Shown: in pieces, positions 40,161 through 53,615 of the stretch
How positions within the stretch are numbered: the stretch's first letter is position 1
Layout of the letters: the number at the start of each line of letters is the position of its first letter
DNA from: a phage
Length of the DNA stretch: 64,000 bases
Assembly (NCBI GenBank): GCA_022520065.1
Contig: GCA_022520065.1_3942.1
Reading direction: 5' to 3' (one strand)
The notes under the pieces: generated by a model
Seen by the model: the letters and a program-made list of their open reading frames with translations, nothing else
Told to the model about the DNA's origin: nothing
The model's database searches: none
Made by a program: the position numbers and the translations under genes

Positions 40161-40166
40161 AGTGTT

Positions 40167-40196
40167 TGACAAGGGGCTTTGAAGCCCCTTAGAATA
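40167..40196 (+). promoter_or_regulatory. promoter-like TTGACA-N18-TAGAAT with palindrome in spacer
   Basis: Spacer is near-palindrome AGGGGCTT-tg-AAGCCCCT. Confidence 0.4.
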
Positions 40197-40239
40197 GCCT
40201 TACAAAATGATTTATTAACTAACAAGAGAGAGTAATAAG

Positions 40240-41349
40240 ATGACTACTAAAACTAAAGCACAGATTGACGCAGAAATTTACGAACTGGTTAAAGAAGGTA
40301 AGCTGACTAAAACAGCTATTGCACAGAAGTTCAATACCTCAACCCGTTCAGTTGGTCGTGCTGTAGAGCGTCATGAAGCAACCTTAAAAGGGAATAAGAA
40401 GGCAACTGCTGCACCAGCTACGAAGACTTTGAAACAAGTTGCTAAGACTTTTAAAAAGAAAGCTGGCAAACCAGTTGAAAAGGTTGTTAAAGATGCTGTA
40501 CAGAAAGCTCCAGTAAATAAACTGCATGAAGCTATGCAGAAAGATGACAAGATTGAGTACATGATTACTGGCGACTCTGTAATTATGACTTACGGTTCAG
40601 AGTCTGAAATTGTTGAATCTACTCATCCGAACTATCAAGAGATTGTAGTTCATGTTGTGAAAGGTGAGTTTAAGAAAGCCTTTGAACTGATGAACATTCG
40701 TAAGTCTATCGAAAACTTCACTCAGGGTGCTATCACAATCAAAGGTGACAAACTATTCTACGGTGCTGTTGAGATGCGTTCTACTCTGGTTGACCGTATT
40801 CTTCACATGATGAAGACTGGAGATAAAGGTTTTGAACGCCTTGTAATGTTCTTTGAAAAACTGATGGAAAACCCATCTAAAGATTCTGTAGAACAACTTT
40901 GGGGCTTCGTATCTCACCTTGATGTTGAAATTGATGAAGAAGGTTACATCATCGGTTGGAAGAAAGTCTCTACTCGTGAAGGCAAGCTGGTTGACTCTCA
41001 CACCTACAAAGTACCTAATGATTTGGGTAACATTGTAGAAATGCCACGTTGGATGGTTGATAATAACCGTAACGTAACTTGCTCTCAAGGTCTTCATGTT
41101 GGTGCTTGGGATTACGTTCGTTGCTTCTCAGGTGATACAATCCTGAAGGTTCGTGTCCATCCACGAGATGTTGTATCTGTTCCAACTGATTACAACGATA
41201 TGAAGATGCGCTCATCCCGTTATGAAGTTGCAGCAATCGTTGATAATCATCGTAAAGTGCTGAAAGCGTGGGATGGTAAGACTGAAGCTTTGCATGTCAT
41301 CGTTGGTACTGCTGGTGAACTTATCTCTCAACGTAAACGTGAAATCTAA
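40240..41349 (+). CDS. rIIB: rIIB protein
   Basis: C-terminal VRVHPRDVVSVPTDYNDMKMRSSRYEV and CSQGLHV resemble T4 rIIB. Confidence 0.85.
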   Translation: MTTKTKAQIDAEIYELVKEGKLTKTAIAQKFNTSTRSVGRAVERHEATLKGNKKATAAPATKTLKQVAKTFKKKAGKPVEKVVKDAVQKAPVNKLHEAMQKDDKIEYMITGDSVIMTYGSESEIVESTHPNYQEIVVHVVKGEFKKAFELMNIRKSIENFTQGAITIKGDKLFYGAVEMRSTLVDRILHMMKTGDKGFERLVMFFEKLMENPSKDSVEQLWGFVSHLDVEIDEEGYIIGWKKVSTREGKLVDSHTYKVPNDLGNIVEMPRWMVDNNRNVTCSQGLHVGAWDYVRCFSGDTILKVRVHPRDVVSVPTDYNDMKMRSSRYEVAAIVDNHRKVLKAWDGKTEALHVIVGTAGELISQRKREI

Positions 41350-44720: not shown

Positions 44721-45500
44721 ATGGGTATTGTAAAAGTTGTAAAAGGTAACTTACTGGCTGCCTTCAAAAACACAGATATTGAGTTAATTGCTCATGGTTG
44801 CAACTGTCGTAACCTCATGGGTGCTGGAATCGCTCAAAAAATTGCTAAGATTTTCCCAAAAGCTGAAGAAGCTGACCGGAAATTCCATAAAAAGTTTGGC
44901 TACAGTGCTCATGATATCGGATACCAGATGGTTGGTGAGGTGTCACATGCTCGAACGGAGTATGGTTACATTTTTAACCTATATACACAGTTGGATGTTG
45001 GGAAGTGTGCATCATACCGATACTTAGTGGAGTCACTAGAAAAACTCCGTAAATTTTGCTGGCTGCACAACATTCGTAAGATTGGTTTACCCATGATTGG
45101 GGCAGGTATAGGCGGTTTAGATGCACAAGCTGTGAAAAGCCTCATTAATAGTGTTATGTATAACGTTGATGTGTACCTCTACGTCTATGATGAAGCAATG
45201 GCAAGTGTAGTTACCCCTAAGTATGCTACCTCAGCACCACAATTCTATGATGGTGTCGTGCTAAGTGACGGGAAGACTAATCAAGTTACCCTCTATCAGC
45301 TTGTTGATGGCAAGGTTGAGGTTAGTTACCCTCTGGTTAGTGAGATGGGTATGTGTAACAGTGAAATGTTCCCAGTTGACCCGTTTGGAAGATATGAAGG
45401 GGTGTTCTTTGATAACTACCCAGCAGCATACATCTACACAACAAATCAGGATGAAGTTCACTACTTGCTGTATTCTAAAAAGTTCAAATTCATAAGCTGA
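44721..45500 (+). CDS. macro-domain (ADP-ribose-binding/processing) protein with C-terminal extension
   Basis: N-terminal DIELIAHGCNCRNLMGAGIAQKI and later IGLPMIGAGIGGLD match macro-domain glycine-rich motifs. Confidence 0.55.
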   Translation: MGIVKVVKGNLLAAFKNTDIELIAHGCNCRNLMGAGIAQKIAKIFPKAEEADRKFHKKFGYSAHDIGYQMVGEVSHARTEYGYIFNLYTQLDVGKCASYRYLVESLEKLRKFCWLHNIRKIGLPMIGAGIGGLDAQAVKSLINSVMYNVDVYLYVYDEAMASVVTPKYATSAPQFYDGVVLSDGKTNQVTLYQLVDGKVEVSYPLVSEMGMCNSEMFPVDPFGRYEGVFFDNYPAAYIYTTNQDEVHYLLYSKKFKFIS

Positions 45501-45575
45501 TTAGCACTTCATAGTATCTACAAATCATCTAAGAAGGCTGCCTAACCCATTGAAAAATTTAAGGTAAGGCGGCCT

Positions 45576-45832
45576 TTTTCATTTTCAATTTGTGCAGGTA
45601 TCTGTAGGGGTCTGTACAGATATCCCAAAAAATCTCATCGCCGGATAGAAAAATCATTTTCAAAACGTGCAGACCCCGCTCAGGTCGGGCAAGAAAAATC
45701 ATTTTAGAATTGTGCAGGTAGGTTTTTATAGAGAGCCAGACCAACCCCTCTCCCCCTCTTACTCCCCCTCTCCCTAAAAGTCAAGAGAAAAATTTGTAGC
45801 GGATTGAAAAATAATTCTTGATTTGTGTTCTG
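45576..45832. repeat. four copies of A/T-rich box followed by TGTGCAGG, plus 30-nt polypyrimidine tract
   Basis: Copies near 45576, 45648, 45693, 45805; C/T tract 45745-45774 (G4-type motif on - strand). Confidence 0.5.
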
Positions 45833-45896
45833 TTTTGTGGTAGTCGTGTGCGCCCGTTTCATTACAGTTTTGCCAAAAATATTTTTAAAATTTTTC

Positions 45897-45925
45897 TTGA
45901 CTCTTTGAGTGTGGTTATCTAATAT
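45897..45925 (+). promoter_or_regulatory. type-A cassette promoter TTGACT-N17-TAATAT
   Basis: Followed by GC hairpin 45936-45956 and conserved leader ending GGAGATTCAAAAATG. Confidence 0.5.
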
Positions 45926-45988
45926 TTGCATCAACGGGGAGGGAATGACCTTCCCCACTAAATAAAGTCCTAAACTGGAGATTCAAAA

Positions 45989-46369
45989 ATGGCATATCGT
46001 GCACCTAAATTCATCAACAAAGACAACTTTCGCAACGCACTGGAGAAGTCACTTGATGAAAATTTTAAAGGTAACATTATCGTTGTTCACGCATTCAATT
46101 TTAAGTATGATATCAACGGGAATAAAATCAACCATTACACGGCAACCATGATAGATGGTACACTTTCAAGTGAAAAAGCCGTACTAAATGCACTTGCAGG
46201 ACGTGGAAAAAACCTGATAAGATGTGATAAGAGACGTTATCAGGGCGGCGCATATGGTTATGATGATGCTATTTATCATCTTGAAAATATGGGCTATCAA
46301 GTAGAAAAAGCTGGAGCATCACAAATCATCGGTAGTGATGGTTATGTAACTATCTTCAAAATTAACTAA
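45989..46369 (+). CDS. hypothetical small protein (array gene 1)
   Basis: ORF behind type-A cassette. Confidence 0.5.
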   Translation: MAYRAPKFINKDNFRNALEKSLDENFKGNIIVVHAFNFKYDINGNKINHYTATMIDGTLSSEKAVLNALAGRGKNLIRCDKRRYQGGAYGYDDAIYHLENMGYQVEKAGASQIIGSDGYVTIFKIN

Positions 46370-46458
46370 TAAAGTACTTTACAAGGGGCTTATAGTTCGA
46401 TAAAGTAAGCCCCAGATAAAGAGCTTTACTACTCAATCCTAAATTGGAGAACTAAAAA

Positions 46459-46716
46459 ATGGCTATTATCAAAAACGTTGTAATTGCTGCAAAAACTCGT
46501 GATGACGCTCGCGTTATGGCTAAAAAGTTATGCGGGAAAGTGGTTGACAACGGAAAAACATCTGCTGTAAGATGGGGCGTAAAGGCTGATAAACATTTAA
46601 TCTTAAAACATAGTTCAAATAACCTTTTTAAAGGTGTAAAATCACTCGGTAAAGTGAATGTTTTCACTAAACAAGGTTACAAAATGCACTTATCATTAAC
46701 TGGCAATTTAATCTGA
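46459..46716 (+). CDS. hypothetical small protein (array gene 2)
   Basis: ORF behind type-B cassette (hairpin 46385-46413). Confidence 0.5.
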   Translation: MAIIKNVVIAAKTRDDARVMAKKLCGKVVDNGKTSAVRWGVKADKHLILKHSSNNLFKGVKSLGKVNVFTKQGYKMHLSLTGNLI

Positions 46717-46804
46717 TAAAGTACTTTACAGGGGGCTTAAAAGCTGATACCTTAAGCCCCAGATAAAGAGCTTTACCAATCAATCCTAAACTGGAGATTC
46801 AAAA

Positions 46805-47317
46805 ATGAAAACTGTAGACGCTACCTTTGAAGTTGTAAAAGAAAAATTCACTATTATTTATGAAGCTGTCAATTGCTTTGAAGCAAGCCATAATCTTGAT
46901 AATTGGGAATTTACAGATGACCATCAAGGTGGTGTGACGATTAAAAATCCTAGCTGTCAGCGTAATGAATTTAAATATGCAATCCCTTTACATTACAGCC
47001 TTAAACAGCTTTCAAGTGACTATGCAAAACAAGGCCGGGCAAATCCATCAAAAGAGGCTTACATCAGCTTACAGAAAGAACTAGAAAGAGATTTAGAGGC
47101 TTCAGAATATAACATTGCCGCGAAAGTTGTAGATGCAAATGGCAGCACTGTTTTAGAAAGTTTTTATATTGGTTATGCTTTCGATTGGTGCTACAGTGAC
47201 GGCGATGATTTAGATGACAGGCTAAAAGAGGAAGTGAACAACGCAGACGCAGAATCTGAAGTATTAGAGCGCTTGGAAGCATTAAAAGATTCAGTGATGA
47301 ATATCTTTAAGAACTAA
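46805..47317 (+). CDS. hypothetical protein (array gene 3)
   Basis: ORF behind type-B cassette (hairpin 46731-46760). Confidence 0.5.
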   Translation: MKTVDATFEVVKEKFTIIYEAVNCFEASHNLDNWEFTDDHQGGVTIKNPSCQRNEFKYAIPLHYSLKQLSSDYAKQGRANPSKEAYISLQKELERDLEASEYNIAAKVVDANGSTVLESFYIGYAFDWCYSDGDDLDDRLKEEVNNADAESEVLERLEALKDSVMNIFKN

Positions 47318-47408
47318 ATAGATTTCTTTACACGGGGCTAACAAGCGGATATGATAGCCCCAGATAAAGAGATTTATCAAATTAACCCTTAAACTAGGAG
47401 ATTCAAAA

Positions 47409-47705
47409 ATGAAATTATCAAATAAAGTTAGGGAAAACCTTAGTAAATTACTCAATAAAATTGATTTTATTGAGACATCAAGAAATAGTCATGATGTTAT
47501 GGAATGGTTACATGGCAAAATAAAAGGCCGTCGTGTAGTAATTTGCTTATGGAATAGTTGCAGGGAGTATAAAAAACCTGTATTGCAAGTTAATATATAC
47601 GATGATACTTTTAAAAGTCCTGTAAAGTCTAAAAGCGATTTATTAGAATCTTATGAGATATCTGTAAGTGGCAAGGTATCACGTAAAGAGGAAACACCAT
47701 GTTAA
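47409..47705 (+). CDS. hypothetical small protein (array gene 4)
   Basis: ORF behind type-B cassette (hairpin 47334-47361). Confidence 0.5.
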   Translation: MKLSNKVRENLSKLLNKIDFIETSRNSHDVMEWLHGKIKGRRVVICLWNSCREYKKPVLQVNIYDDTFKSPVKSKSDLLESYEISVSGKVSRKEETPC

Positions 47706-48031
47706 TAACTGGCATTACTGCAATCATAGCCATTATAGCACTTTATAAGGCATATAAAGCCTATAATCTGGCAAGTAAGGCAATCACGCAGCAGGCTAGC
47801 AATAACCTTGTAGGGAGCTTTCTGGAGCGTTTAAGCGATGAGCAAATAAAGCGGCTAGAGATGAGCTTCAGATATAAAGCGAAAACCTATCAGATAAGTG
47901 ACATCTTCAAAGATGATTTTCAGTTAGTCGATGATTATAATTCTCTGATAAATGCTTTAAATGTCAGTGACTTAAAAAACTACTACGCTGTAATTGTTCA
48001 AGAATTGAGCAAACGAAAACAAAACTGTTGA
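47699..48031 (+). CDS. hypothetical small membrane-anchored protein (array gene 5)
   Basis: Hydrophobic N-terminus; AGAGGA RBS; overlaps gene 4 stop. Confidence 0.45.
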   Translation: MLITGITAIIAIIALYKAYKAYNLASKAITQQASNNLVGSFLERLSDEQIKRLEMSFRYKAKTYQISDIFKDDFQLVDDYNSLINALNVSDLKNYYAVIVQELSKRKQNC

Positions 48032-48056
48032 TACTGGTTTTTAGATAGATTAAATT
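48028..48056 (+). promoter_or_regulatory. type-A cassette promoter TTGATA-N17-TAAATT
   Basis: Followed by hairpin 48067-48086. Confidence 0.45.
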
Positions 48057-48119
48057 ACACATCAACGGGGAGGAAATGACCTCCCCCACTAAATAAAGTC
48101 CTAAACTGGAGATTCTAGA

Positions 48120-48392
48120 ATGTATACTACTAACAACGGTCGCACTTTAAATGTCACACTACGTCACTATGTAGATGGTGTCATGCACTTTGAAGATTTA
48201 CAAGCTGAACAACATATCTTAGATTGGCAAGTAGCAGGACTCCAAAAAACTGCTACGGGATACGGTAAAAAGATTCCAACCAGTTGGAAAGTTCACTATG
48301 AAGGACGTTTGCGCAGAATTTATCAAGATGTGCAAAGCAATAGCGCATCGAGTTACATTATAGTAAAAGGCAAAAAACTGCATTTAACGTAA
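48120..48392 (+). CDS. hypothetical small protein (array gene 6)
   Basis: ORF behind type-A cassette. Confidence 0.5.
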   Translation: MYTTNNGRTLNVTLRHYVDGVMHFEDLQAEQHILDWQVAGLQKTATGYGKKIPTSWKVHYEGRLRRIYQDVQSNSASSYIIVKGKKLHLT

Positions 48393-48478
48393 AGTACTTT
48401 ACAAGGGGCTTATAGTTCGATAAAGTAAGCCCCAGATAAAGAGCTTTACCACTCAATCCTAAATTGGAGAACTTAAAA

Positions 48479-48883
48479 ATGGCTATTAATAACCGTGAAT
48501 TATCAATCTTAAAAGCACGTTTGACCGTTAATCGAATCAACATTATGACATCATCAGCGCCTGATGAGACATTGCACAACATTATCGGAAAGATTCAAAG
48601 CGTTATTTTAGACGTTGAAAACGTAAAAAGCTCATTGGCTGACGTTGCAGCAGGTATCACACTAGATGGCGCACAATATGAAATGTCCGACATGTTAGGC
48701 AAATCAAAGGTAATGAATAAAGAGCTTGATTTAAAGATGTTCCGATTTGCTGTTAAAGTATGGCTATCCGTCGAGTATGACGCTAATTTTGCAATCGCTG
48801 ATTTCTTTGCCACTTGGTTACAACGTAATTTGACAAATCACGATTTTCGTGATGTCTGCGATGCAATTTATGCAGAACTCTAA
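48479..48883 (+). CDS. hypothetical protein (array gene 7)
   Basis: Track start 48464 is TTG; cassette-conserved ATG at 48479; type-B hairpin 48405-48433. Confidence 0.5.
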   Translation: MAINNRELSILKARLTVNRINIMTSSAPDETLHNIIGKIQSVILDVENVKSSLADVAAGITLDGAQYEMSDMLGKSKVMNKELDLKMFRFAVKVWLSVEYDANFAIADFFATWLQRNLTNHDFRDVCDAIYAEL

Positions 48884-48892
48884 AAAATTTTG

Positions 48893-48921
48893 TTGACACT
48901 GGTTTTTAGATAGATTAAATT
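48893..48921 (+). promoter_or_regulatory. type-A cassette promoter TTGACA-N17-TAAATT
   Basis: Followed by hairpin 48932-48951. Confidence 0.5.
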
Positions 48922-48984
48922 ACACATCAACGGGGAGGAAATGACCTCCCCCACTAAATAAAGTCCTAAACTGGAGATTCAAAA

Positions 48985-49188
48985 ATGGCTATTATTAATG
49001 GTTTAACCATTGAAACTACACACATCAAAGATATCAAAGTTGGCGATATAGTCCTTTCCCACGGCGTAGAAAAAACTGTCACTGCAAAGGATATCAAAGA
49101 GGATTTTTTCATGGGTAGGACTCTCTTCGGTGATTCTTATTGCTTAGGCTATCTTGCAGTTTTAAAAGTTGTCAAAAATAACAAATAA
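48985..49188 (+). CDS. hypothetical small protein (array gene 8)
   Basis: ORF behind type-A cassette. Confidence 0.5.
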   Translation: MAIINGLTIETTHIKDIKVGDIVLSHGVEKTVTAKDIKEDFFMGRTLFGDSYCLGYLAVLKVVKNNK

Positions 49189-49273
49189 AGTACTTTACAA
49201 GGGGCTTAAAAGTTGATAACTTAAGCCTCAGATAAAGAGCTTTACCACTAAATCCTAAACTGGAGATTCAAAA

Positions 49274-49816
49274 ATGAAATGTTATCACGGAACTACTCAA
49301 GAAAATTTCCTCAACCTGATTAATAACGGTGATAAACCATCAGGCGCATGGAATTGTTCGGATATGGACGGCAATTTTTACGTGTATCCAGAAAATAAAA
49401 TCTATGGCGACGATGATGAAGAGATAACATCGGAGGGCATTCAGCAAGCTCTAGGGAACGCCACTATTACGGCGGCCTTCCAGATGAAAACCCAAAATAT
49501 TGTTATCTTAGAACTCGATATTCCAGATGATGAGCTAAATGATGATTATTCTTGTGATAATATGTCGAGTGTAGCAAGTTTTACAGAGTACTTTGATGTA
49601 AACTGGATTAAAAAGGTCTATACAACAGAGTTTAACGCTATGTATTCGCCTTTTTGTCTTCCTTCACTGGATAACCCAAATATGAACTATCTTGATGAGA
49701 CATTAGAACTACTTGCTAAAAGTGTTCAACAGTCGGACAGTATTCAGGTTTTTTGTGACATCATGGATACACTGACAGGAAACATCGCAGAAGAGGATTT
49801 AAAGAGCTTTTTCTAA
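49274..49816 (+). CDS. hypothetical acidic protein (array gene 9)
   Basis: ORF behind type-B cassette (hairpin 49201-49229). Confidence 0.5.
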   Translation: MKCYHGTTQENFLNLINNGDKPSGAWNCSDMDGNFYVYPENKIYGDDDEEITSEGIQQALGNATITAAFQMKTQNIVILELDIPDDELNDDYSCDNMSSVASFTEYFDVNWIKKVYTTEFNAMYSPFCLPSLDNPNMNYLDETLELLAKSVQQSDSIQVFCDIMDTLTGNIAEEDLKSFF

Positions 49817-49848
49817 AAACCTATGCAATCACCTTATAAACACTATTT

Positions 49849-49868
49849 AGCCCCTTACAGGGGCTTTT
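49849..49868 (+). terminator. intrinsic terminator-like hairpin
   Basis: AGCCCC-ttaca-GGGGCT followed by TTTT. Confidence 0.45.
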
Positions 49869-49882
49869 GGGAGGCTTAAATC

Positions 49883-50116
49883 ATGCTTACAACCGTTTAC
49901 CTCATCCTTTCTATTTGTAACGGTCATTCATGCGATTTTAAAGGGCTTGAAGAGTTTACAGGAAGTAAAGAAAATGCTATTCAAGTTTGCCAGATAGCAA
50001 GACAAGACTATCCCGCTAGTGATGATATACAATGTTACTTTAAGACAGAAGATGAAGACGGTATCTATTTTGACAGCGTAGATGGTCAGTATGAAATTAT
50101 CATTGAAAAAGACTAG
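49883..50116 (+). CDS. hypothetical small protein (array gene 10)
   Basis: GGGAGG RBS 8 nt upstream of ATG. Confidence 0.45.
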   Translation: MLTTVYLILSICNGHSCDFKGLEEFTGSKENAIQVCQIARQDYPASDDIQCYFKTEDEDGIYFDSVDGQYEIIIEKD

Positions 50117-50142
50117 ACAAGCCTGATAAAAATCTGTAAATT
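50114..50142 (+). promoter_or_regulatory. type-A cassette promoter TAGACA-N17-TAAATT
   Basis: Followed by hairpin 50153-50173. Confidence 0.4.
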
Positions 50143-50207
50143 GTCAATCAACGGGGAGGGAATGACCTTCCCCACTAAGTACAATCCTTAAACTAGGAGA
50201 TTCAAAA

Positions 50208-50549
50208 ATGGCTTATGTAACCGTAATTACCGATAAAGAAAATTCATCTTGGTCAACTCAAGTAAGTGATAAGATGTCACCTATGCAGTGCCTAAAATAC
50301 TTTGAACAGTGGAACAAAGGCGAGGACACAAGCCCCTTTCAAGTGATGCAGATTATCCATGTAGATAACGAAGGGAATAAAACGGTTTTAAATAGTGAGT
50401 ACTACGCAAGCCATTTTGAAACGAGAAGTAAAACAATGAAGCTTTTACGTGAATCCGGTTATGCCCATATCGCCGCGTTAATCTGGGATGACCTGCTAAA
50501 AAACCAACGTATCAGCTATGTAAAACCTGAAAAAATATTCATCAGTTAA
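50208..50549 (+). CDS. hypothetical protein (array gene 11)
   Basis: ORF behind type-A cassette. Confidence 0.5.
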   Translation: MAYVTVITDKENSSWSTQVSDKMSPMQCLKYFEQWNKGEDTSPFQVMQIIHVDNEGNKTVLNSEYYASHFETRSKTMKLLRESGYAHIAALIWDDLLKNQRISYVKPEKIFIS

Positions 50550-50581
50550 TCAATAACTTACAAAAAACTTTTAAAAAAATG

Positions 50582-50600
50582 TTGACAATACCCCTTGACA
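50582..50600 (+). promoter_or_regulatory. tandem TTGACA element (weaker copy of 15666/61883 motif)
   Basis: GTTGACAAtaccccTTGACA. Confidence 0.3.
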
Positions 50601-50678
50601 TTGGTAACTTTGTTCGAGGGGGTTTATCTAAAAGGGATTCACTTAAAAGATTCTTTATAGATAAGCTCAAAAAATTAC

Positions 50679-50708
50679 TTGCAATCAACTATCAAAACAA
50701 GTAAATTA
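50679..50708 (+). promoter_or_regulatory. type-A cassette promoter TTGCAA-N17-TAAATT
   Basis: Followed by degenerate hairpin 50718-50737. Confidence 0.4.
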
Positions 50709-50769
50709 CTAATCAACGGGAAGGCAATAACCTCCCCACTAAATAAAGTCCTAAACTGGAGATTCTAAA

Positions 50770-51300
50770 ATGAACAAATTTCAAGCTATCAACTTCATTC
50801 GTTCAAATGCTGTAATGTCTAAGCCTGTAAAAGATACATACGAATTCCGTTGTAATGGGGTACATTTCGCAACAATCACCAAATCAGAAAACGGGGCTTA
50901 TTACGTTCATCGTCGTAATGTTTCAACCGTTGTAGTCTCTCACTTTATGCAAGCTGTAGCGGAATTATTACCGTTATTCTTAGAGATTTACTTAGATGAG
51001 TGTAAAAACGTTCACAACCACGTTAAAAGCCTTTTAAACGGTTATAAAATGGCTTATGAACGCTCTATCAAGTCCTTAAACAAGTTTTACAATGCACCTG
51101 CAAATACTGTTTCAATGGCTTATGATGTAAACGGTGAGTTAGTTAGTCTCTTTGAAGTGGAAGAAATTAAGCTGTATAATTTACGTCCTAGTGGTTACTC
51201 TAAGACTCTTGGTGAAGGTTTATCCTTTAATATCAAGAACTTAGAAAAAACTTTAAAAGACATTGAAAAAGATATTGACGAGACAATCAAAAGTCTGTAA
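50770..51300 (+). CDS. hypothetical protein (array gene 12)
   Basis: ORF behind type-A cassette. Confidence 0.5.
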   Translation: MNKFQAINFIRSNAVMSKPVKDTYEFRCNGVHFATITKSENGAYYVHRRNVSTVVVSHFMQAVAELLPLFLEIYLDECKNVHNHVKSLLNGYKMAYERSIKSLNKFYNAPANTVSMAYDVNGELVSLFEVEEIKLYNLRPSGYSKTLGEGLSFNIKNLEKTLKDIEKDIDETIKSL

Positions 51301-51303
51301 ATT
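51275..51303 (+). promoter_or_regulatory. type-A cassette promoter TTGACG-N17-TAAATT
   Basis: Lies within 3' end of gene 12; followed by hairpin 51314-51334. Confidence 0.45.
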
Positions 51304-51366
51304 GTCAATCAACGGGGAGGGAATGACCTTCCCCACTAAATAAAGTCCTAAACTGGAGTTATCAAG

Positions 51367-51630
51367 ATGGAAAACGTAGAATTAACCACACTTTTACAAA
51401 TTGCAACCGACAAAGAGAACGTAGCTTTATTTCACCGCATCGAAAGTGATTTGTTCAATGGTGAAATCATCAAAGAGTCTTACGAGGTTGTTGGATTCAA
51501 AGATGGTAAAACATTTGGATTCTTTGACCTCGAAAAAGGCAACGCTGTTACAAAATATGATGTTTTATCTTGTGAGATTCTTACAAGATACAACGAAAAA
51601 AGGCTTGCAACATACGCCAATATGCAGTAA
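51367..51630 (+). CDS. hypothetical small protein (array gene 13)
   Basis: ORF behind type-A cassette. Confidence 0.5.
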   Translation: MENVELTTLLQIATDKENVALFHRIESDLFNGEIIKESYEVVGFKDGKTFGFFDLEKGNAVTKYDVLSCEILTRYNEKRLATYANMQ

Positions 51631-51633
51631 ATT
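51605..51633 (+). promoter_or_regulatory. type-A cassette promoter TTGCAA-N17-TAAATT
   Basis: Followed by hairpin 51644-51661. Confidence 0.4.
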
Positions 51634-51696
51634 ACTAATCAACGGGAGGCGATAACCTCCCCACTAAATAAAACCCTTAAACTAGGAGATTCAAAA

Positions 51697-51945
51697 ATGG
51701 CAACTATCCGCGCTACTGTTAACGAGTTCGGTTTTTCCTCTCTGGATGTTAAATTTGACATTGCAGGCACTGATAACGCCTTTGAAATGGTGAAAGGTCT
51801 TATCAGTCAGACCATCAAAGATTATAATCCTTCGGATGAGTTCTGGGAGGAAACAAAACAAGAAGTTCTCAAGGATGGTTATACTTATCACTATTGGGGA
51901 GAAAAAATCGTCTCCCTGTACTACAACAAACAAGATTATAACTAA
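51697..51945 (+). CDS. hypothetical small protein (array gene 14)
   Basis: ORF behind type-A cassette. Confidence 0.5.
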   Translation: MATIRATVNEFGFSSLDVKFDIAGTDNAFEMVKGLISQTIKDYNPSDEFWEETKQEVLKDGYTYHYWGEKIVSLYYNKQDYN

Positions 51946-51983
51946 TCGACGCAGCGGGGCTAAATAGCCCCAGATACCCTAAC

Positions 51984-52008
51984 AGCCCCTTTAAATAGGG
52001 GCTTTTTT
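51984..52008 (+). terminator. strong intrinsic terminator closing the array
   Basis: AGCCCCT-ttaaat-AGGGGCT followed by TTTTTT; preceded by type-B-like hairpin 51956-51971. Confidence 0.65.
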
Positions 52009-52010
52009 AC

Positions 52011-53590
52011 GTCTATCCAATCCTTATACAATCCCTTTCCCTCACCTTTCCAGAATCTATCCACTGATTCGATAGAACCTATCTCATACCTTAAAAAGCA
52101 ATAACTCTATAGTCTACTCTGTAACCTCTTATCAAATCAACTTAAATAAAAGCCAATAACCCCAGAAAGGGGATGGCCCATTTAAACGCTCTATAAAGCT
52201 CTATAACAGCCTTATCAAACTGACTTAAGGGATTGCATTAACTCACCCTAAAAAGCCCTTTATAAAGCTTCCTAGAGCCTTAAAAGAATCTTATAAGGGT
52301 GTAAGCTTTATCATCTCGTTAGTATTCTTGTGAACTATTAAAAAGGGCTTGGTAGTGTCTTAAAAGTATGTTATAGGGGCTATAAAGTTACTTCAAAGTT
52401 ACGTAAAAGAGGCTATAAAGTTACGTAAATGCTAGCCCCCTTAACATTTTCTTAACAATTTCTTAACAATCCCTACATAGTTATGCTTTTAAGGCACTTG
52501 TTAGCAACTTGTTAGCCCCTTGTTAAATCTCTGTTAAGACCACGTAAAAGCCTTGTAAGAGTCTTTGACATAGCCTTAAAAGCTTCTGTAAAGCTCTATA
52601 AAGAGGTGTCTGTACAGTTGGGGGATAGATACTAGGAAGAGACTTAAAAGAGCTTATAAAGAGCTATAGAGAGCTTTTAAAAGGTATGTTTAAGGAATCA
52701 CTAAGAGGGGAAAGGGAACGATAAGAAAGAGATAGTGACCATGTTAATAGCTTGTTAAAAAGATTAAACACTTGTTAGAAACTTGTTAATTATCTTAACA
52801 AAATAACTCTTAAAAATCAACTTGTTAGCTCTTGTTAGTCATCTGTTAAGGCTCTGTAAAGCCTATGTATCAACTGTTAAGAAACTGTTACACCATTGTT
52901 AGTTCTGTTAAGAAACTGTTAAGACCTTTGAAGAGTTGTTAAGAGCTTGAGAGAGTTGTTAAGAAATTGTTAAGGATATTTTAAAATTTTGCAAAGTACT
53001 TGTAAGGGAGCTGTTAAGGGCTACCAAGCAGATATACATCTTCTACAGATATTTTTGAGTTCCTTCAAAGACCCTAAAAAATGACTTGACAGTCCTATTT
53101 TATAAAAATTTTAAGATTCTGAATAATTACCTATACAGTCTTTTAAAAATACAGGTAGAAACAGGCTTATAAGATACCTTGTTAGTACCGTGTTAGACCT
53201 TGTGAGATAAGGTCTGTAAAGATATTCCTGTTAAGTTTGTTAAAACAGTCTATATAGAGGCTTAGTAGTACCTAGTGAACACCTATAGAGAGTGTCATAG
53301 CTAACCTAGAGATTAAGAGGTGTATAGGAGCTTCTAAGAGGGTATAGAGAGATGGTTAAGATGATTGTATAGGTTGTTTAGAAGGCTTGTTAGAAGAGTG
53401 TTTAGATGGCTATTTAGAAGGGCTATACAGAGGGCTATTAAGACCACTAGATAGTTACTAAGATACTATATAGTACTATATAACTATATATAGAGAGTAA
53501 GATTAAGAAGGTTGTTAAGAAGGGTAGATATTTTGTTCACATATAATGGTGACCCAGAGGTTGGGACAACCGATAAAATTTTATAAAAAT
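52011..53590. repeat. ORF-free island saturated with short degenerate direct repeats (YTGTTARR and related words)
   Basis: No ORF of 60 aa or more on either strand; dense block 52740-52990; tandem 11-mer 52449-52470; TATATA block 53461-53500. Confidence 0.7.
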
Positions 53591-53591
53591 T

Positions 53592-53615
53592 AAAAAGCCC
53601 CCAATTAAGGAGGCT
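53592..53615 (-). terminator. intrinsic terminator for leftward operon
   Basis: On - strand AGCCTCC-ttaatt-GGGGGCT followed by TTTTT; same hairpin design as 17118. Confidence 0.55.

What the first reader, a model, noticed from the sequence alone, without database searches (positions are those of the whole stretch)
45897..52008. Array of 14 small genes wired by two alternating, near-identical ~60-bp upstream cassettes
Fourteen small ORFs (64-180 aa, none with a recognisable family) lie head to tail. Most are preceded by one of two conserved cassettes. Type A is a sigma70-like promoter (TTGACA-like, 17-nt spacer, TAAATT or TAATAT), then a GC hairpin GGGGAGG-gaatgacc-TTCCCC at about +4 to +25 of the predicted transcript, then a near-invariant leader ACTAAATAAAGTCCTAAACTGGAGATTCAAAAATG; it occurs before genes at 45989, 48120, 48985, 50208, 50770, 51367 and 51697. 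Type B is a hairpin GGGGCTTA-n13-TAAGCCCC placed directly after the upstream stop codon, then CAGATAAAGAGCTTTACC...AATCCTAAAYTGGAGAWYYAAAAATG; it occurs before 46459, 46805, 47409, 48479 and 49274. Neither hairpin has a U-tract, so they look like 5'-leader or processing structures rather than terminators. Type-A promoters sit inside the 3' end of the preceding coding sequence. The layout resembles the promoter-stem-loop cassettes that mediate modular gene shuffling in hyperplastic regions of T4-type phages, but with a different sequence. Such arrays typically carry host-takeover or anti-defence genes.
Basis: partly seen in the sequence, partly recalled or inferred. Interest (0 to 1): 0.75.

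Follow-up and report, generated by a model that had tools for sequence, protein, structure and literature searches.

The report
Repeated promoter-hairpin cassettes bounding phage genes
In a Felix O1-type phage, 14 small early genes of unknown function are separated by two kinds of repeated ~95-bp control cassettes (promoter, RNA hairpin, ribosome site), and related phages have gained or lost whole genes by recombination inside these cassettes.

Summary
The window is a Felix O1-like phage (Ounavirinae). At 45897-52008, 14 unrelated small genes lie head to tail, and 12 are preceded by a cassette: 7 type A and 5 type B. Both types are confined to this array.

Type A has a sigma70-like -35, a 17-bp spacer, TAAATT, exactly 10 nt, a G-run/C-run hairpin, an A-rich leader, GGAG and ATG.

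Type B was under-read. Its hairpin is only the top of a 57-58-nt, 19-bp three-helix hairpin. Across 73 distinct copies, 98.9% of cells pair, 52 cells show compensatory change, and 0 of 500 shuffles match this. It also carries an embedded promoter, TTTACA-17/18 bp-TAnnnT, in all 73 copies.

Both cassettes occur in four genera. Gene order is collinear in 16 genomes, but gene-plus-cassette units come and go. Four junctions are chimeric inside a cassette.

Best reading: these are plug-in early-expression modules, analogous to T4 PeSLs but built differently. Promoter activity, start sites, RNA stabilisation and RNase III processing are inferred, not shown. Gene functions remain unknown. The Felix O1 genome paper (2010) listed the repeats only as direct repeats. 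I rate this a new variant of a known kind, of moderate interest.

The parts
45897..45991 (+). Type A cassette 1: -35 TTGACT 45897-45902, -10 TAATAT 45920-45925, hairpin 45936-45956, GGAG 45977-45980, ATG 45989
45989..46369 (+). gene, 126 aa, unknown function (phrog_4495)
46367..46461 (+). Type B cassette 1: stop codon, extended hairpin 46371-46428, -35 TTTACA 46378-46383, -10 TAAAGT 46401-46406, predicted +1 at A 46414, GGAG 46446-46449
46459..46716 (+). gene, 85 aa, unknown function (phrog_5089); a divergent allele of about 71% nt identity is present in 5 relatives
46714..46807 (+). Type B cassette 2: extended hairpin 46718-46775, -35 46725-46730, TGA|TACCTT -10 46748-46753, predicted +1 at 46761
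46805..47317 (+). gene, 170 aa, unknown function (phrog_4190); it is missing together with its type B cassette in fjerdesal, VpaE1, typing phage 12 and SP116, and lies within the larger LF82P5 deletion
47316..47411 (+). Type B cassette 3 (diverged copy with compensated lower stem): extended hairpin 47320-47376, -35 47327-47332, -10 TATGAT 47350-47355, predicted +1 at 47362
47409..48031 (+). two overlapping genes, 98 aa (47409-47705) and 110 aa (47699-48031), with no cassette between them; the 47699 start overlaps the upstream stop
48028..48122 (+). Type A cassette 2: -35 TTGATA 48028-48033 (contains the upstream TGA stop), -10 TAAATT 48051-48056, hairpin 48067-48087
48120..48392 (+). gene, 90 aa (phrog_3436); homologues also occur in Erwinia, Cronobacter, Pectobacterium and Pseudomonas phages
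48387..48481 (+). Type B cassette 4: extended hairpin 48391-48448, -35 48398-48403, -10 TAAAGT 48421-48426, predicted +1 at 48434
48479..48883 (+). gene, 134 aa from ATG 48479 (phrog_4327)
48893..48987 (+). Type A cassette 3: -35 TTGACA 48893-48898, -10 TAAATT 48916-48921, hairpin 48932-48952
48985..49188 (+). gene, 67 aa (phrog_3623); replaced by an unrelated 82-aa gene in SUSP2, absent in Felix O1 and Moogle
49183..49276 (+). Type B cassette 5: extended hairpin 49187-49244, -35 49194-49199, TGA|TAACTT -10 49217-49222, predicted +1 at 49230
49274..49816 (+). gene, 180 aa (phrog_3303); a divergent allele of about 64% nt identity is present in bumzen and Shy; homologues also occur in Erwinia, Vibrio and Pseudomonas PAK_P1-like phages
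49848..49867 (+). terminator-like hairpin AGCCCCTTACAGGGGCTTTT inside the array, followed by GGGAGG and the ATG at 49883
   Evidence: read from the sequence; it has only 4 T, so the scan did not list it
49883..50116 (+). gene, 77 aa (phrog_4640), with no A or B cassette
50114..50210 (+). Type A cassette 4: -35 TAGACA 50114-50119 (contains the upstream TAG stop), -10 50137-50142, hairpin 50153-50173, variant leader with TAGGAG
50208..50549 (+). gene, 113 aa (phrog_4318)
50679..50772 (+). Type A cassette 5: -35 TTGCAA 50679-50684, -10 50702-50707, weakest hairpin 50718-50737 (-8.0 kcal/mol)
50770..51300 (+). gene, 176 aa (phrog_4725); its TAA stop lies inside the -10 TAAATT of the next cassette
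51275..51369 (+). Type A cassette 6: -35 TTGACG 51275-51280, -10 51298-51303, hairpin 51314-51334
51367..51630 (+). gene, 87 aa (phrog_7022); it is absent together with one type A cassette in 7 of the 15 relatives
51605..51699 (+). Type A cassette 7: -35 TTGCAA 51605-51610, -10 51628-51633 (contains the upstream TAA stop), hairpin 51644-51662
51697..51945 (+). gene, 82 aa (phrog_4559), last gene of the array
51957..52008 (+). end of the array: a type B remnant (GGGGCTAAATAGCCCCAGATA) followed by a true intrinsic terminator at 51984-52008, which matches Felix O1 terminator t23

Best explanation
The region is the accessory early-gene array of a Felix O1-type myophage. Each gene, or gene pair, is a self-contained expression module bounded by one of two composite cassettes.

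Type A is a host sigma70 promoter whose hexamers often supply the stop codon of the upstream gene. Transcription is predicted to start 2-3 nt before a G-run/C-run hairpin. The hairpin would sit at the extreme 5' end of the mRNA, where such structures protect against 5'-end-dependent decay. It would also sit in the 3' tail of any read-through transcript. An A-rich leader and a GGAG ribosome site follow.

Type B starts at the upstream stop codon. In read-through RNA it forms a 19-bp, two-turn, three-helix hairpin with a 3x3 internal loop. This is the size and shape of an RNase III processing or 3'-protective signal. The same DNA encodes a second promoter: -35 TTTACA in the lower stem, -10 TAnnnT in the apical loop and 3' arm, and a start at the invariant A of CCCC-A-GATAAAG.

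Because about 95 bp of near-identical sequence, including start and stop codons, flanks every module, homologous recombination between cassettes deletes, inserts or swaps whole genes without breaking expression. That makes the array hyperplastic.

Shown: the sequence architecture, its conservation across four genera, covariation of the type B hairpin, chimeric junctions, and a mosaic of alleles. Inferred: promoter activity, start sites, RNA stabilisation, RNase III cleavage, and early timing. The timing has weak support from published RT-PCR.
For: Identity of the phage and breadth: 257 phage records match the array, and only 34 cover 80% or more of it.

Distribution: profiles find both cassette types in Felixounavirus, Suspvirus and Mooglevirus, and type B-like cassettes in Kolesnikvirus. 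In the complete Felix O1 genome they are confined to 8.3-12.1 kb. The type B pattern is found in IMG/VR only on contigs of 54-94 kb, with 1-10 copies per matched stretch.

Promoters: in type A, T, A and T at -10 positions 1, 2 and 6 are invariant in 73 distinct copies, and AATCAAC is 97-100% conserved. The 17-bp spacer and the 10 nt before the hairpin hold in all 7 window copies. In type B, CTTTACA is near-invariant (one copy reads CTCTACA) and TAnnnT lies 17 bp downstream in 70 of 73 copies and 18 bp in the other 3. All four copies with the weakest -10 carry an extended -10 TGn.

Type B hairpin: RNAalifold predicts the three-helix structure on its own. 98.9% of 1375 cells are paired, with 52 compensatory cells in 5 pairs; 0 of 500 shuffles reach this, and slid controls reach at most 60%. 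The commonest pair at one position is U.G, which pairs only in sense-strand RNA. Single folds give -21.5 to -27.5 kcal/mol with z -3.4 to -5.9.

Type A hairpin: nearly all full-length variants among the 51 distinct ones tabulated fold, at -7.5 to -17 kcal/mol.

Recombination: the gene map shows whole units present or absent. Four junctions switch parent inside a cassette. The same hairpin variant sits at several positions in one genome but differs at orthologous positions between genomes. Per-gene identity is mosaic.

Timing: Felix O1 ORFs 16, 20, 21 and 22 were maximal at 5 min (PMC3185647).

RNase III criteria (two helical turns, coaxial helices, internal loops that leave a protective 3' hairpin) come from PMC1540722.
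Against: No transcript data exist for any Felixounavirus in the searchable literature, so every start site and every RNA function is a prediction.

The promoter consensus scan is only about 2.5 sd above background in this AT-rich region: 33 found against 22 +/- 4 expected. The promoter case therefore rests on positional conservation.

Type A hairpin covariation is not significant: 92% of cells pair, but 46 of 500 shuffles do as well, and sliding by one column still gives 84%. RNAalifold does not recover the type A hairpin on the model-fitted alignment.

The type B -35 hexamer is also part of the lower stem, so its invariance does not prove a promoter on its own.

The structural alignments were fitted to the model and the sequences are related. 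Both facts inflate pairing statistics.

Felix O1 ORFs 17, 19 and 23 were maximal at 25 min, not 5 min.

Gene order is fully collinear, so there is no evidence of reordering.

Selection against breakpoints inside genes would by itself place surviving junctions in intergenic cassettes.
Confidence: 0.7

Rival explanations
1. The hairpins are mainly transcription terminators or attenuators that insulate each module, as proposed and reporter-tested for T4-type PeSL stem-loops. The promoters simply restart transcription after each stop.
For: GGGG...CCCC stems sit in every intergenic space, as in PeSLs (PMC2839356). The array also contains a U-tract hairpin at 49848-49867 and ends with a canonical terminator at 51984-52008. 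A promoter at nearly every gene would make sense if read-through were poor.
Against: Neither hairpin is followed by a U-tract. Type A is followed by ACUAAAUAAAG and type B by AGAUAAAGAG, and the terminator scan lists none of them. The type A hairpin lies downstream of its own promoter, so an efficient terminator there would abort the cassette's own transcript. The type B lower helices and the invariant 3x3 internal loop are not features of terminators.
Confidence: 0.15
2. Type B is purely an RNA element, a processing or stability hairpin in a polycistronic early transcript, with no promoter. The TTTACA-17-TAnnnT match is a side effect of stem and loop constraints.
For: CUUUA of the putative -35 pairs with UAAAG in helix 2, and the last T of the -10 is the first base of the 3' arm. 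Pairing alone could therefore conserve those bases. Two of the five window copies have only 3 of 6 matches in the -10.
Against: T and A at -10 positions 1 and 2 lie in the apical loop, where neighbouring columns vary freely. They are still 97% conserved, and the remaining copies are the 18-bp-spacer variants. The hexamer keeps its distance to TTTACA (17 bp) even when the 3' arm is one base shorter. Weak -10 cores co-occur with TGn. A related element between rIIA and rIIB has TTGACA, a hairpin and TAGAAT in the same layout. Erwinia-phage copies keep TTTACA-17-TAGTAT while their stems have changed.
Confidence: 0.2
3. The conserved inverted repeats act at the DNA level as binding sites for a phage protein, such as an early-gene shut-off repressor, a recombinase or a homing-type nuclease, and not as RNA structures.
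For: CCCCAGATAAAGAG is invariant over 14 nt in 73 distinct copies from three genera, and CTTTACA is near-invariant. This is more than pairing requires. TAAAGnnCTTTA palindromes flank the type B hairpin. The PeSL authors speculated about a GGGG/CCCC-binding recombination protein.
Against: Stem positions covary while pairing is kept, which is the signature of a folded strand and not of a sequence-specific operator. U.G and G.U are the commonest pairs at three positions. They pair only in sense RNA and would be mismatches in antisense RNA or in a DNA cruciform. No candidate binding protein was identified.
Confidence: 0.08
4. The cassettes are passive relics of an old tandem duplication of one intergenic region. 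They have no role in generating diversity, and the gene differences between phages arose by illegitimate recombination that selection happened to leave in intergenic DNA.
For: Type A and type B share a common 3' half, and cross-hits between the two models reach 32-37 bits, so they probably descend from one ancestral element. Selection alone would remove breakpoints inside genes.
Against: The flanked genes are unrelated. All four examined junctions are clean switches within shared sequence, with no added or lost bases, as homologous exchange produces. The same hairpin variants are spread over several positions within a genome. The cassettes are maintained with covariation across four genera.
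Confidence: 0.05

Closest known systems
PeSLs (promoter-early stem-loops) of T4-type phages (Arbiol et al. 2010, PMC2839356; Comeau et al. 2014, PMC4122927)
   Same: Both are repeated composite cassettes made of a sigma70-like promoter, a GGGG...CCCC stem-loop and a Shine-Dalgarno/ATG. Both lie between small genes of unknown function in a hyperplastic early region. Close relatives differ by insertion, deletion or replacement of gene-plus-cassette units, with crossovers inside the cassette.
   Different: The phage lineage differs (Ounavirinae, not T4-like), and the sequences are unrelated. In PeSLs the stem-loop lies just upstream of the -35 and was shown to terminate transcription. Here it lies downstream of the -10 (type A) or spans the promoter spacer (type B), and it has no U-tract. 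Type B has two extra helices, giving a 19-bp hairpin. Mini-circles and promoter or terminator activity were demonstrated for PeSLs and are untested here.
RNase III processing signals of the phage T7 early transcript (for example R1.1; Pertzev and Nicholson 2006, PMC1540722)
   Same: Both are intercistronic, irregular hairpins of about two helical turns, built from stacked helices with an internal loop, in an early region transcribed by host polymerase. Single-strand cleavage in such sites leaves a protective 3' hairpin on the upstream mRNA.
   Different: There is no sequence similarity, no cleavage data and no known cleavage site, so proximal-box and distal-box rules cannot be checked. To my knowledge T7 sites do not contain promoters (my own recollection, not checked here). 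The type B element does, by sequence.
5'-terminal stem-loop mRNA stabilisers (E. coli ompA 5' UTR; the T7 phi10 leader used in pET vectors).
   Same: The type A hairpin is predicted to begin 2-3 nt from the transcript's 5' end, the position at which such hairpins block 5'-end-dependent RNase E and RppH attack.
   Different: The start site is only predicted, no half-life data exist, and the sequences are unrelated.
Direct repeats listed in the Felix O1 genome paper (Whichard et al. 2010, PMC3185647)
   Same: They are the same elements. The 57-bp repeat CTTTACATGGGGCTTAAAAGTCTGTAAAGTAAGCCCCAGATAAAGAGCTTTACCACT is type B, and the 39-bp repeat TTGACACTGGTTTTTAGATAGATTAAATTACACATCAAC is the promoter part of type A.
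   Different: That paper reported them only as direct repeats at two positions each. It did not list them among its predicted promoters and proposed no structure or role.
Intergenic repeats of halovirus HF2 that carry promoters (PMC8707807; known here only from the abstract shown)
   Same: Two classes of repeated intergenic sequence in a virus genome carry promoters.
   Different: That is an archaeal virus with archaeal promoters. The part of the abstract I read mentions no hairpin component and no link to gene gain or loss.

Membership tests
PeSL cassettes (T4-type) | sigma70-like promoter with -35 and -10 about 17 bp apart | tested here: met
   Type A: 7 of 7 window copies, and the -10 T, A and T are invariant in 73 distinct copies. 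Type B: 73 of 73 copies at 17-18 bp. This is sequence evidence only.
PeSL cassettes (T4-type) | stem-loop placed just upstream of the promoter's -35 (PMC4122927, Fig. 3 legend) | tested here: not met
   The type A hairpin starts 10 nt after the -10. The type B hairpin spans the -35 to the -10.
PeSL cassettes (T4-type) | stem-loop acts as a transcription terminator | not testable with these tools
   By sequence no U-tract follows either hairpin, which argues against it. A reporter or 3'-end data are needed.
PeSL cassettes (T4-type) | clustered between small non-core ORFs and associated with indels or replacements between close relatives, with crossover inside the cassette | tested here: met
PeSL cassettes (T4-type) | formation of excised mini-circles | not testable with these tools
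   requires inverse PCR on infected cells or virions
E. coli RNase III processing signal | about two helical turns of double helix, which may be built from coaxially stacked helices (PMC1540722) | tested here: met
   Type B has 5+5+9 = 19 base pairs plus a 3x3 internal loop and one mismatch within 57-58 nt. The structure is supported by covariation.
E. coli RNase III processing signal | internal loop or bulge at the target site that limits cleavage to one strand | tested here: inconclusive
   A conserved 3x3 internal loop (A-C-A/N against A-G-A) is present, but the cleavage site is unknown.
E. coli RNase III processing signal | absence of inhibitory base pairs in the proximal and distal boxes | not tested
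   The boxes are defined relative to the scissile bond, which is not known here.
E. coli RNase III processing signal | cleavage by RNase III in vivo or in vitro | not testable with these tools
   needs rnc mutant hosts or purified enzyme
5'-terminal stem-loop mRNA stabiliser | hairpin within a few unpaired nucleotides of the 5' end of the transcript | tested here: inconclusive
   With the usual 7-8 nt from the -10 to +1, the start falls on an A of the invariant CAAC, leaving 2-3 unpaired nt. The start site itself is not mapped.
Intrinsic (Rho-independent) terminator | GC-rich hairpin immediately followed by a U-tract | tested here: not met
   No type A or type B hairpin appears in the terminator scan. 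Only 51984-52008 qualifies.
Tandem duplication that includes coding sequence | the flanked genes are paralogous | tested here: not met
   No alignment between the 48120 and 48985 products, and 14 different PHROGs.

The most novel reading that the evidence does not exclude
Type B is a truly bifunctional element. The same ~58 nt is read as DNA as a sigma70 promoter, and as RNA as an RNase III-type processing and 3'-protective hairpin. The promoter start coincides with the 3' side of the internal loop, so the promoter-initiated mRNA and the processed read-through mRNA would have nearly the same 5' end. The upstream stop codon sits at the foot of the stem, so terminating ribosomes would melt the lower helices and could couple upstream translation to processing. 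Together with type A (promoter plus 5'-cap hairpin), this would be a previously undescribed natural plug-and-play expression system. It is conserved across the Ounavirinae and doubles as the recombination scaffold for its accessory genes.
Probability: 0.3. Interest if true: 0.7.

Novelty: new variant of a known kind. Interest (0 to 1): 0.55.

Why it matters
Felix O1-type phages are widely used for Salmonella and E. coli typing, biocontrol and therapy. Whichard et al. (2010) stated that how their transcription is organised was not known.

These cassettes give concrete, testable predictions for about a dozen early promoters and RNA elements per genome.

They also extend cassette-mediated modular gene exchange, so far described for T4-like phages, to an unrelated myophage subfamily with a different cassette design. 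This suggests convergent evolution of expression cassettes that double as recombination linkers.

The cassettes mark out exactly which genes are the exchangeable accessory set, and these are the natural candidates for host-takeover or counter-defence screens.

The compact promoter, hairpin and RBS units could be useful as parts for phage engineering, because new genes could be inserted between cassettes without disturbing their neighbours.

Tried and rejected
- A fuzzy-regex scan for cassettes timed out. I replaced it with nhmmer and covariance models.
- MAFFT misplaced the one-base deletion in the type B 3' arm, so I used model-based alignments instead.
I repeated them at stricter thresholds.
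- Covariation for the type A hairpin was tested and is not significant. RNAalifold on that alignment does not return the hairpin. I therefore claim only conserved pairing potential for type A.
- Paralogy of the 90-aa and 67-aa genes, suggested by my own single-linkage clustering, was rejected by direct comparison.
- Pfam, PHROGs (all 'unknown function') and PDB sequence searches for the three largest proteins gave no functional lead. I ran no further search on them, because gene function is peripheral to the finding.
- Rfam gave nothing above noise. The window has no tRNAs.
- Literature searches found no transcriptome and no description of these cassettes for Felixounavirus.
- I considered a T4 MotA-box reading of TGCTTTA in the SUSP2 and Moogle copies and rejected it. 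The box lies 19 nt from the -10, not about 12 (the MotA spacing is from my own knowledge), and the element fits a -35 at 17 bp.
- I first read the TAAAGnnCTTTA palindromes flanking the type B hairpin as possible operators. I re-interpreted them as the two lower helices of the RNA hairpin, because they pair with each other, covary (GC to UA in 10 copies) and use U.G pairs.

Full report
WHAT THE WINDOW IS

A megablast of 45500-52100 matches 257 phage records, almost all Felixounavirus (Felix O1-like myophages of E. coli, Salmonella, Shigella and Citrobacter). Identity is typically 88-93%. Only 34 records cover 80% or more of the query, and coverage falls continuously to below 10%. The array is therefore present throughout the group but variable in content.

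In Felix O1 coordinates it corresponds to ORFs 15-23 (8.4-12.4 kb). It lies after a macro-domain 'phosphatase' gene and ends at the published terminator t23.

CHECK OF THE OBSERVATION

- Fourteen + strand ORFs of 67-180 aa lie head to tail.
- Seven are preceded by type A and five by type B.
- The core 28-mer of type A occurs five times exactly, with two more diverged copies. The core 21-mer of type B occurs five times with up to 2 mismatches. None of either is expected by chance, and none occurs elsewhere in the 64 kb.
- Gene 47699 overlaps the stop of its upstream neighbour.
- Gene 49883 follows a terminator-like hairpin (AGCCCCTTACAGGGGCTTTT) and its own GGGAGG.

ANATOMY OF TYPE A

All seven window copies share one layout:
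- a -35-like hexamer (TTGACA, TTGACT, TTGACG, TTGATA, TAGACA, or TTGCAA twice);
- exactly 17 bp;
- TAAATT (once TAATAT);
- exactly 10 nt ending in ATCAAC;
- a hairpin with a 6-8-bp stem (19-21 nt overall) with a G-rich 5' arm and a C-rich 3' arm (-8 to -15 kcal/mol);
- ACTAAATAAAG;
- CCTAAACTGGAG or CCTTAAACTAGGAG;
- 8 nt and the ATG.

In 87 copies (73 distinct) from the window and 14 of the 15 relatives, the -10 T, A and T (positions 1, 2 and 6) are invariant and AATCAAC is 97-100% conserved. With the usual 7-8 nt between the -10 and +1, transcription would start on an A of CAAC, so the hairpin would begin at +3 or +4. This is an inference.

The stop codon of the upstream gene often lies inside the promoter hexamers: TGA in TTGATA at 48029-48031, TAG in TAGACA at 50114-50116, and TAA in TAAATT at 51298-51300 and 51628-51630.

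Nearly all full-length hairpin variants among the 51 distinct ones tabulated fold on their own, and 92% of cells pair. Covariation, however, is not above the shuffle control (46 of 500), and a one-column slide still pairs 84% of cells because the arms are homopolymer-like. RNAalifold does not recover the hairpin on that alignment. I therefore treat the type A hairpin as conserved pairing potential, not a proven structure. One point favours sense-strand RNA: the commonest pair at one position is G.U.

ANATOMY OF TYPE B

First, RNAalifold on 76 copies predicts that the GGGGCTTA...TAAGCCCC stem is the top of a three-helix hairpin. Upstream UAAAG-N-CUUUA pairs with downstream UAAAG-AG-CUUUA. That gives 5+5+9 = 19 base pairs, a 3x3 internal loop (ACA or ACN opposite AGA), one mismatch and an 11-13-nt apical loop, in 57-58 nt.

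On 73 distinct copies:
- 98.9% of 1375 cells pair;
- 52 cells in 5 pairs carry changes on both sides (for example G-C to U-A in 10 copies in the lowest helix);
- no shuffle of 500 reaches the observed pairing, compensatory-cell count or covariation score;
- sliding the partner by 1-3 columns drops pairing to 34-60%.

U.G is the commonest pair at two positions, which fits only sense RNA. Single sequences fold at -21.5 to -27.5 kcal/mol, z -3.4 to -5.9. Caveats: the alignment was fitted to a model of the top helix, and the sequences are related.

Second, the element contains a promoter.
- CTTTACA (-35 TTTACA) is near-invariant; one of the 73 copies reads CTCTACA.
- A TAnnnT hexamer lies 17 bp downstream in 70 of 73 distinct copies and 18 bp in the other three.
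- Its first two bases lie in the apical loop, where the neighbouring columns vary freely.
- G at -14 is 90% conserved.
- All four copies with only 3 of 6 matches in the -10 have TGn.
- When the 3' arm is one base shorter, the hexamer keeps its distance to TTTACA, not to the arm.

The predicted start is the invariant A of CCCC-A-GATAAAGAG. That 14-mer is invariant in all 73 copies.

The upstream stop codon lies 0-3 nt before, or overlaps, the first pair of the lower helix.

DISTRIBUTION

- Both cassette types are found in every relative examined: 13 Felixounavirus, Suspvirus SUSP2 and Mooglevirus Moogle.
- An Erwinia phage (Kolesnikvirus) has type B-like units, AAAGTGCTTTACA-GGTGTTT...AAGCACC-AGATAAAGAGCTTT. 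They show a compensated G-C to U-A change and TTTACA-17-TAGTAT.
- In the complete Felix O1 genome both types are confined to the array. The one exception is a weak type B-like hit between rIIA and rIIB. In the window this reads TTGACA-AGGGGCTT-TGA-AGCCCC-T-TAGAAT, the same idea of a hairpin inside a promoter spacer.
- An exact type B pattern scan of IMG/VR finds 45 stretches, all on contigs of 54-94 kb, with 1-10 copies per stretch.

GAIN AND LOSS AT CASSETTES

A gene-family and cassette map of 16 genomes shows strictly collinear order, but whole units are present or absent.
- The 170-aa gene plus one type B cassette is missing in four phages (it also lies within the larger LF82P5 deletion).
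- The 87-aa gene plus one type A cassette is missing in seven.
- An extra 68-aa gene plus a type B cassette heads the array in nine.
- Felix O1 jumps from the 134-aa gene straight to the 113-aa gene.
- LF82P5 has lost eight genes.
- Typing phage 12, SP116, finno/Shy and SUSP2 carry extra or substituted genes.

Four junctions were aligned against both 'parents'. In each, similarity switches from the left parent to the right parent inside the cassette, within sequence shared by both and with no extra or missing bases. In the type B cases the switch falls between the apical hairpin and the leader, around CCCCAGATAAAGAG.

Type A hairpin variants are distributed as a mosaic. Adrianh carries GGGAGGTAATAGCCTCCCC at three positions and the one-base variant GGGAGGTAATAACCTCCCC at a fourth. 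Bas63, finno and fjerdesal carry GGGGCGGG at one to two positions each. Orthologous positions in other genomes carry other variants. Per-gene nucleotide identity to the window is also mosaic. For example, bumzen is 95% and 97% identical in two neighbouring genes, 64% in the 180-aa gene, then 94% in the next.

It is evidence for insertion, deletion and allele replacement, not for reordering.

THE GENES

None has a Pfam domain. All belong to PHROGs of unknown function. The three largest have no sequence relative in the PDB.

Two were searched by tblastn. The 180-aa family also occurs in Erwinia, Vibrio (about 137 kb) and Pseudomonas PAK_P1-like phages. The 90-aa family occurs in Erwinia, Cronobacter, Pectobacterium, Enterobacter and Pseudomonas phages. 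They are widely shared accessory genes.

In Felix O1, RT-PCR put ORFs 16, 20, 21 and 22 at maximum 5 min after infection and ORFs 17, 19 and 23 at 25 min (PMC3185647). This is weak support for early expression. A host-takeover or anti-defence role remains a guess.

HOW IT MOST LIKELY WORKS

Each module is expressed by host RNA polymerase from its own cassette.

Type A gives an mRNA capped by a 5' hairpin. This is the arrangement known to slow 5'-end-dependent decay (my own recollection of the ompA work and the T7 phi10 leader). The same hairpin is present near the 3' end of read-through RNA from the upstream gene.

Type B gives the downstream gene two routes to expression. One is initiation at its internal promoter. 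The other is read-through RNA in which the two-turn hairpin forms. E. coli RNase III substrates typically have two helical turns, which may be assembled from stacked helices. Internal loops limit cleavage to one strand and leave a protective 3' hairpin (PMC1540722). Type B has that size and shape, but cleavage is untested.

Because start codon, stop codon, ribosome site and promoter all lie inside the repeated sequence, any crossover between two cassettes yields intact, expressed genes. That explains the clean unit-wise indels.

I put about 0.7 on the overall model: composite promoter-hairpin cassettes that bound expression modules and act as recombination linkers.

COMPARISON WITH WHAT IS KNOWN

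The closest system is the PeSL of T4-type phages (PMC2839356, PMC4122927). It has the same components, the same genomic setting and the same evolutionary consequence.

The present cassettes are not members of that family in the strict sense. The phage is unrelated and the sequences are unrelated. The stem-loop is downstream of or inside the promoter, not upstream of it. No U-tract follows. Type B has two additional helices.

The Felix O1 genome paper listed both elements as 57-bp and 39-bp direct repeats. It did not include them among its predicted promoters and left the organisation of transcription open. I found no later description, although the searchable library lacks most subscription journals.

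VERDICT

The feature is real and functionally coherent. It is best filed as a new variant of a known kind. It will interest phage genomicists and phage engineers, and it makes sharp, cheap experimental predictions. It is not categorically new.

Noticed in passing
window 40160-40240 (between the rIIA-like and rIIB-like genes): The intergenic element TAAAGTGTTTGACA-AGGGGCTT-TGA-AGCCCC-T-TAGAAT has a short GC hairpin lying entirely inside the spacer of a near-consensus promoter (TTGACA, about 18 bp, TAGAAT). It is the only type B-like hit outside the array in the Felix O1 genome scan (33 bits).
   Followed up: partly
window 52010-53600: A 1.6-kb stretch with no ORF of 60 aa or more lies directly after the array terminator. 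It is packed with short repeats: YTGTTARNA occurs 16 times here out of 35 in the whole 64 kb, and CTATAAAG-type and 33-nt tandem repeats are also present. Relatives annotate 'repeat_region' features here. It may hold the genome terminus or terminal repeat, packaging signals or iterons.
   Followed up: partly
window 45500-45896: This is a 400-nt non-coding leader before the first cassette. It contains a 39-nt direct repeat (45634-45672 and 45679-45717, 74% identical, core GAAAAATCATTTT) and a C-rich polypyrimidine tract, CCCCTCTCCCCCTCTTACTCCCCCTCTCCC, at about 45746-45776. Some relatives annotate small minus-strand ORFs here.
   Followed up: no
window 49817-49882: A terminator-like hairpin with a short T-run (AGCCCCTTACAGGGGCTTTT) sits inside the array between the 180-aa and 77-aa genes. 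This gene pair is adjacent in every relative that has the two genes. It may partly split the array into two transcription domains.
   Followed up: no
window 50550-50770: This is an unusually long 220-nt spacer containing TTGACAATACCCCTTGACATTGGTAACTT (two overlapping -35-like hexamers, one forming TTGACA-17-TAACTT). It also holds a 41-aa ORF (50579-50704) whose TAA stop lies in the -10 of the next type A cassette, as real genes of the array do. The ORF is intact only in the window and in LF82P5. It could be a decaying module or a small RNA.
   Followed up: no
window 44721-45653: By a crude global alignment, the macro-domain gene just upstream of the array is only about 59% identical in nucleotides to the orthologues of 14 relatives, while array genes are about 90% identical. 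Most megablast hits start only at window 45654. Only FSL SP-107 matches window 45500-45957. This looks like a divergent allele or a recombination boundary at the head of the array.
   Followed up: partly
L011 (Salmonella phage SP116) 7154-7340: Two complete type A cassettes lie in tandem, 5 nt apart, alongside a 51-aa ORF. This is a possible footprint of a recent cassette-mediated insertion or excision.
   Followed up: no
L006 (phage fjerdesal) 2167-2271: The first type A cassette of this record has a run of 13 G in the hairpin (GGGGGGGGGGGGGAAATGCCGGACCCC). This is probably a homopolymer sequencing or assembly error in the deposited record and not biology.
   Followed up: no
window 49274-49816 and 48120-48392: Homologues of these two array genes occur in unrelated large phages: Pseudomonas PAK_P1-like, ~137-kb Vibrio phages, 140-150-kb Cronobacter, Pectobacterium and Enterobacter phages, and one weak Streptomyces phage hit. 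I did not check whether they are flanked there by analogous cassettes.
   Followed up: no
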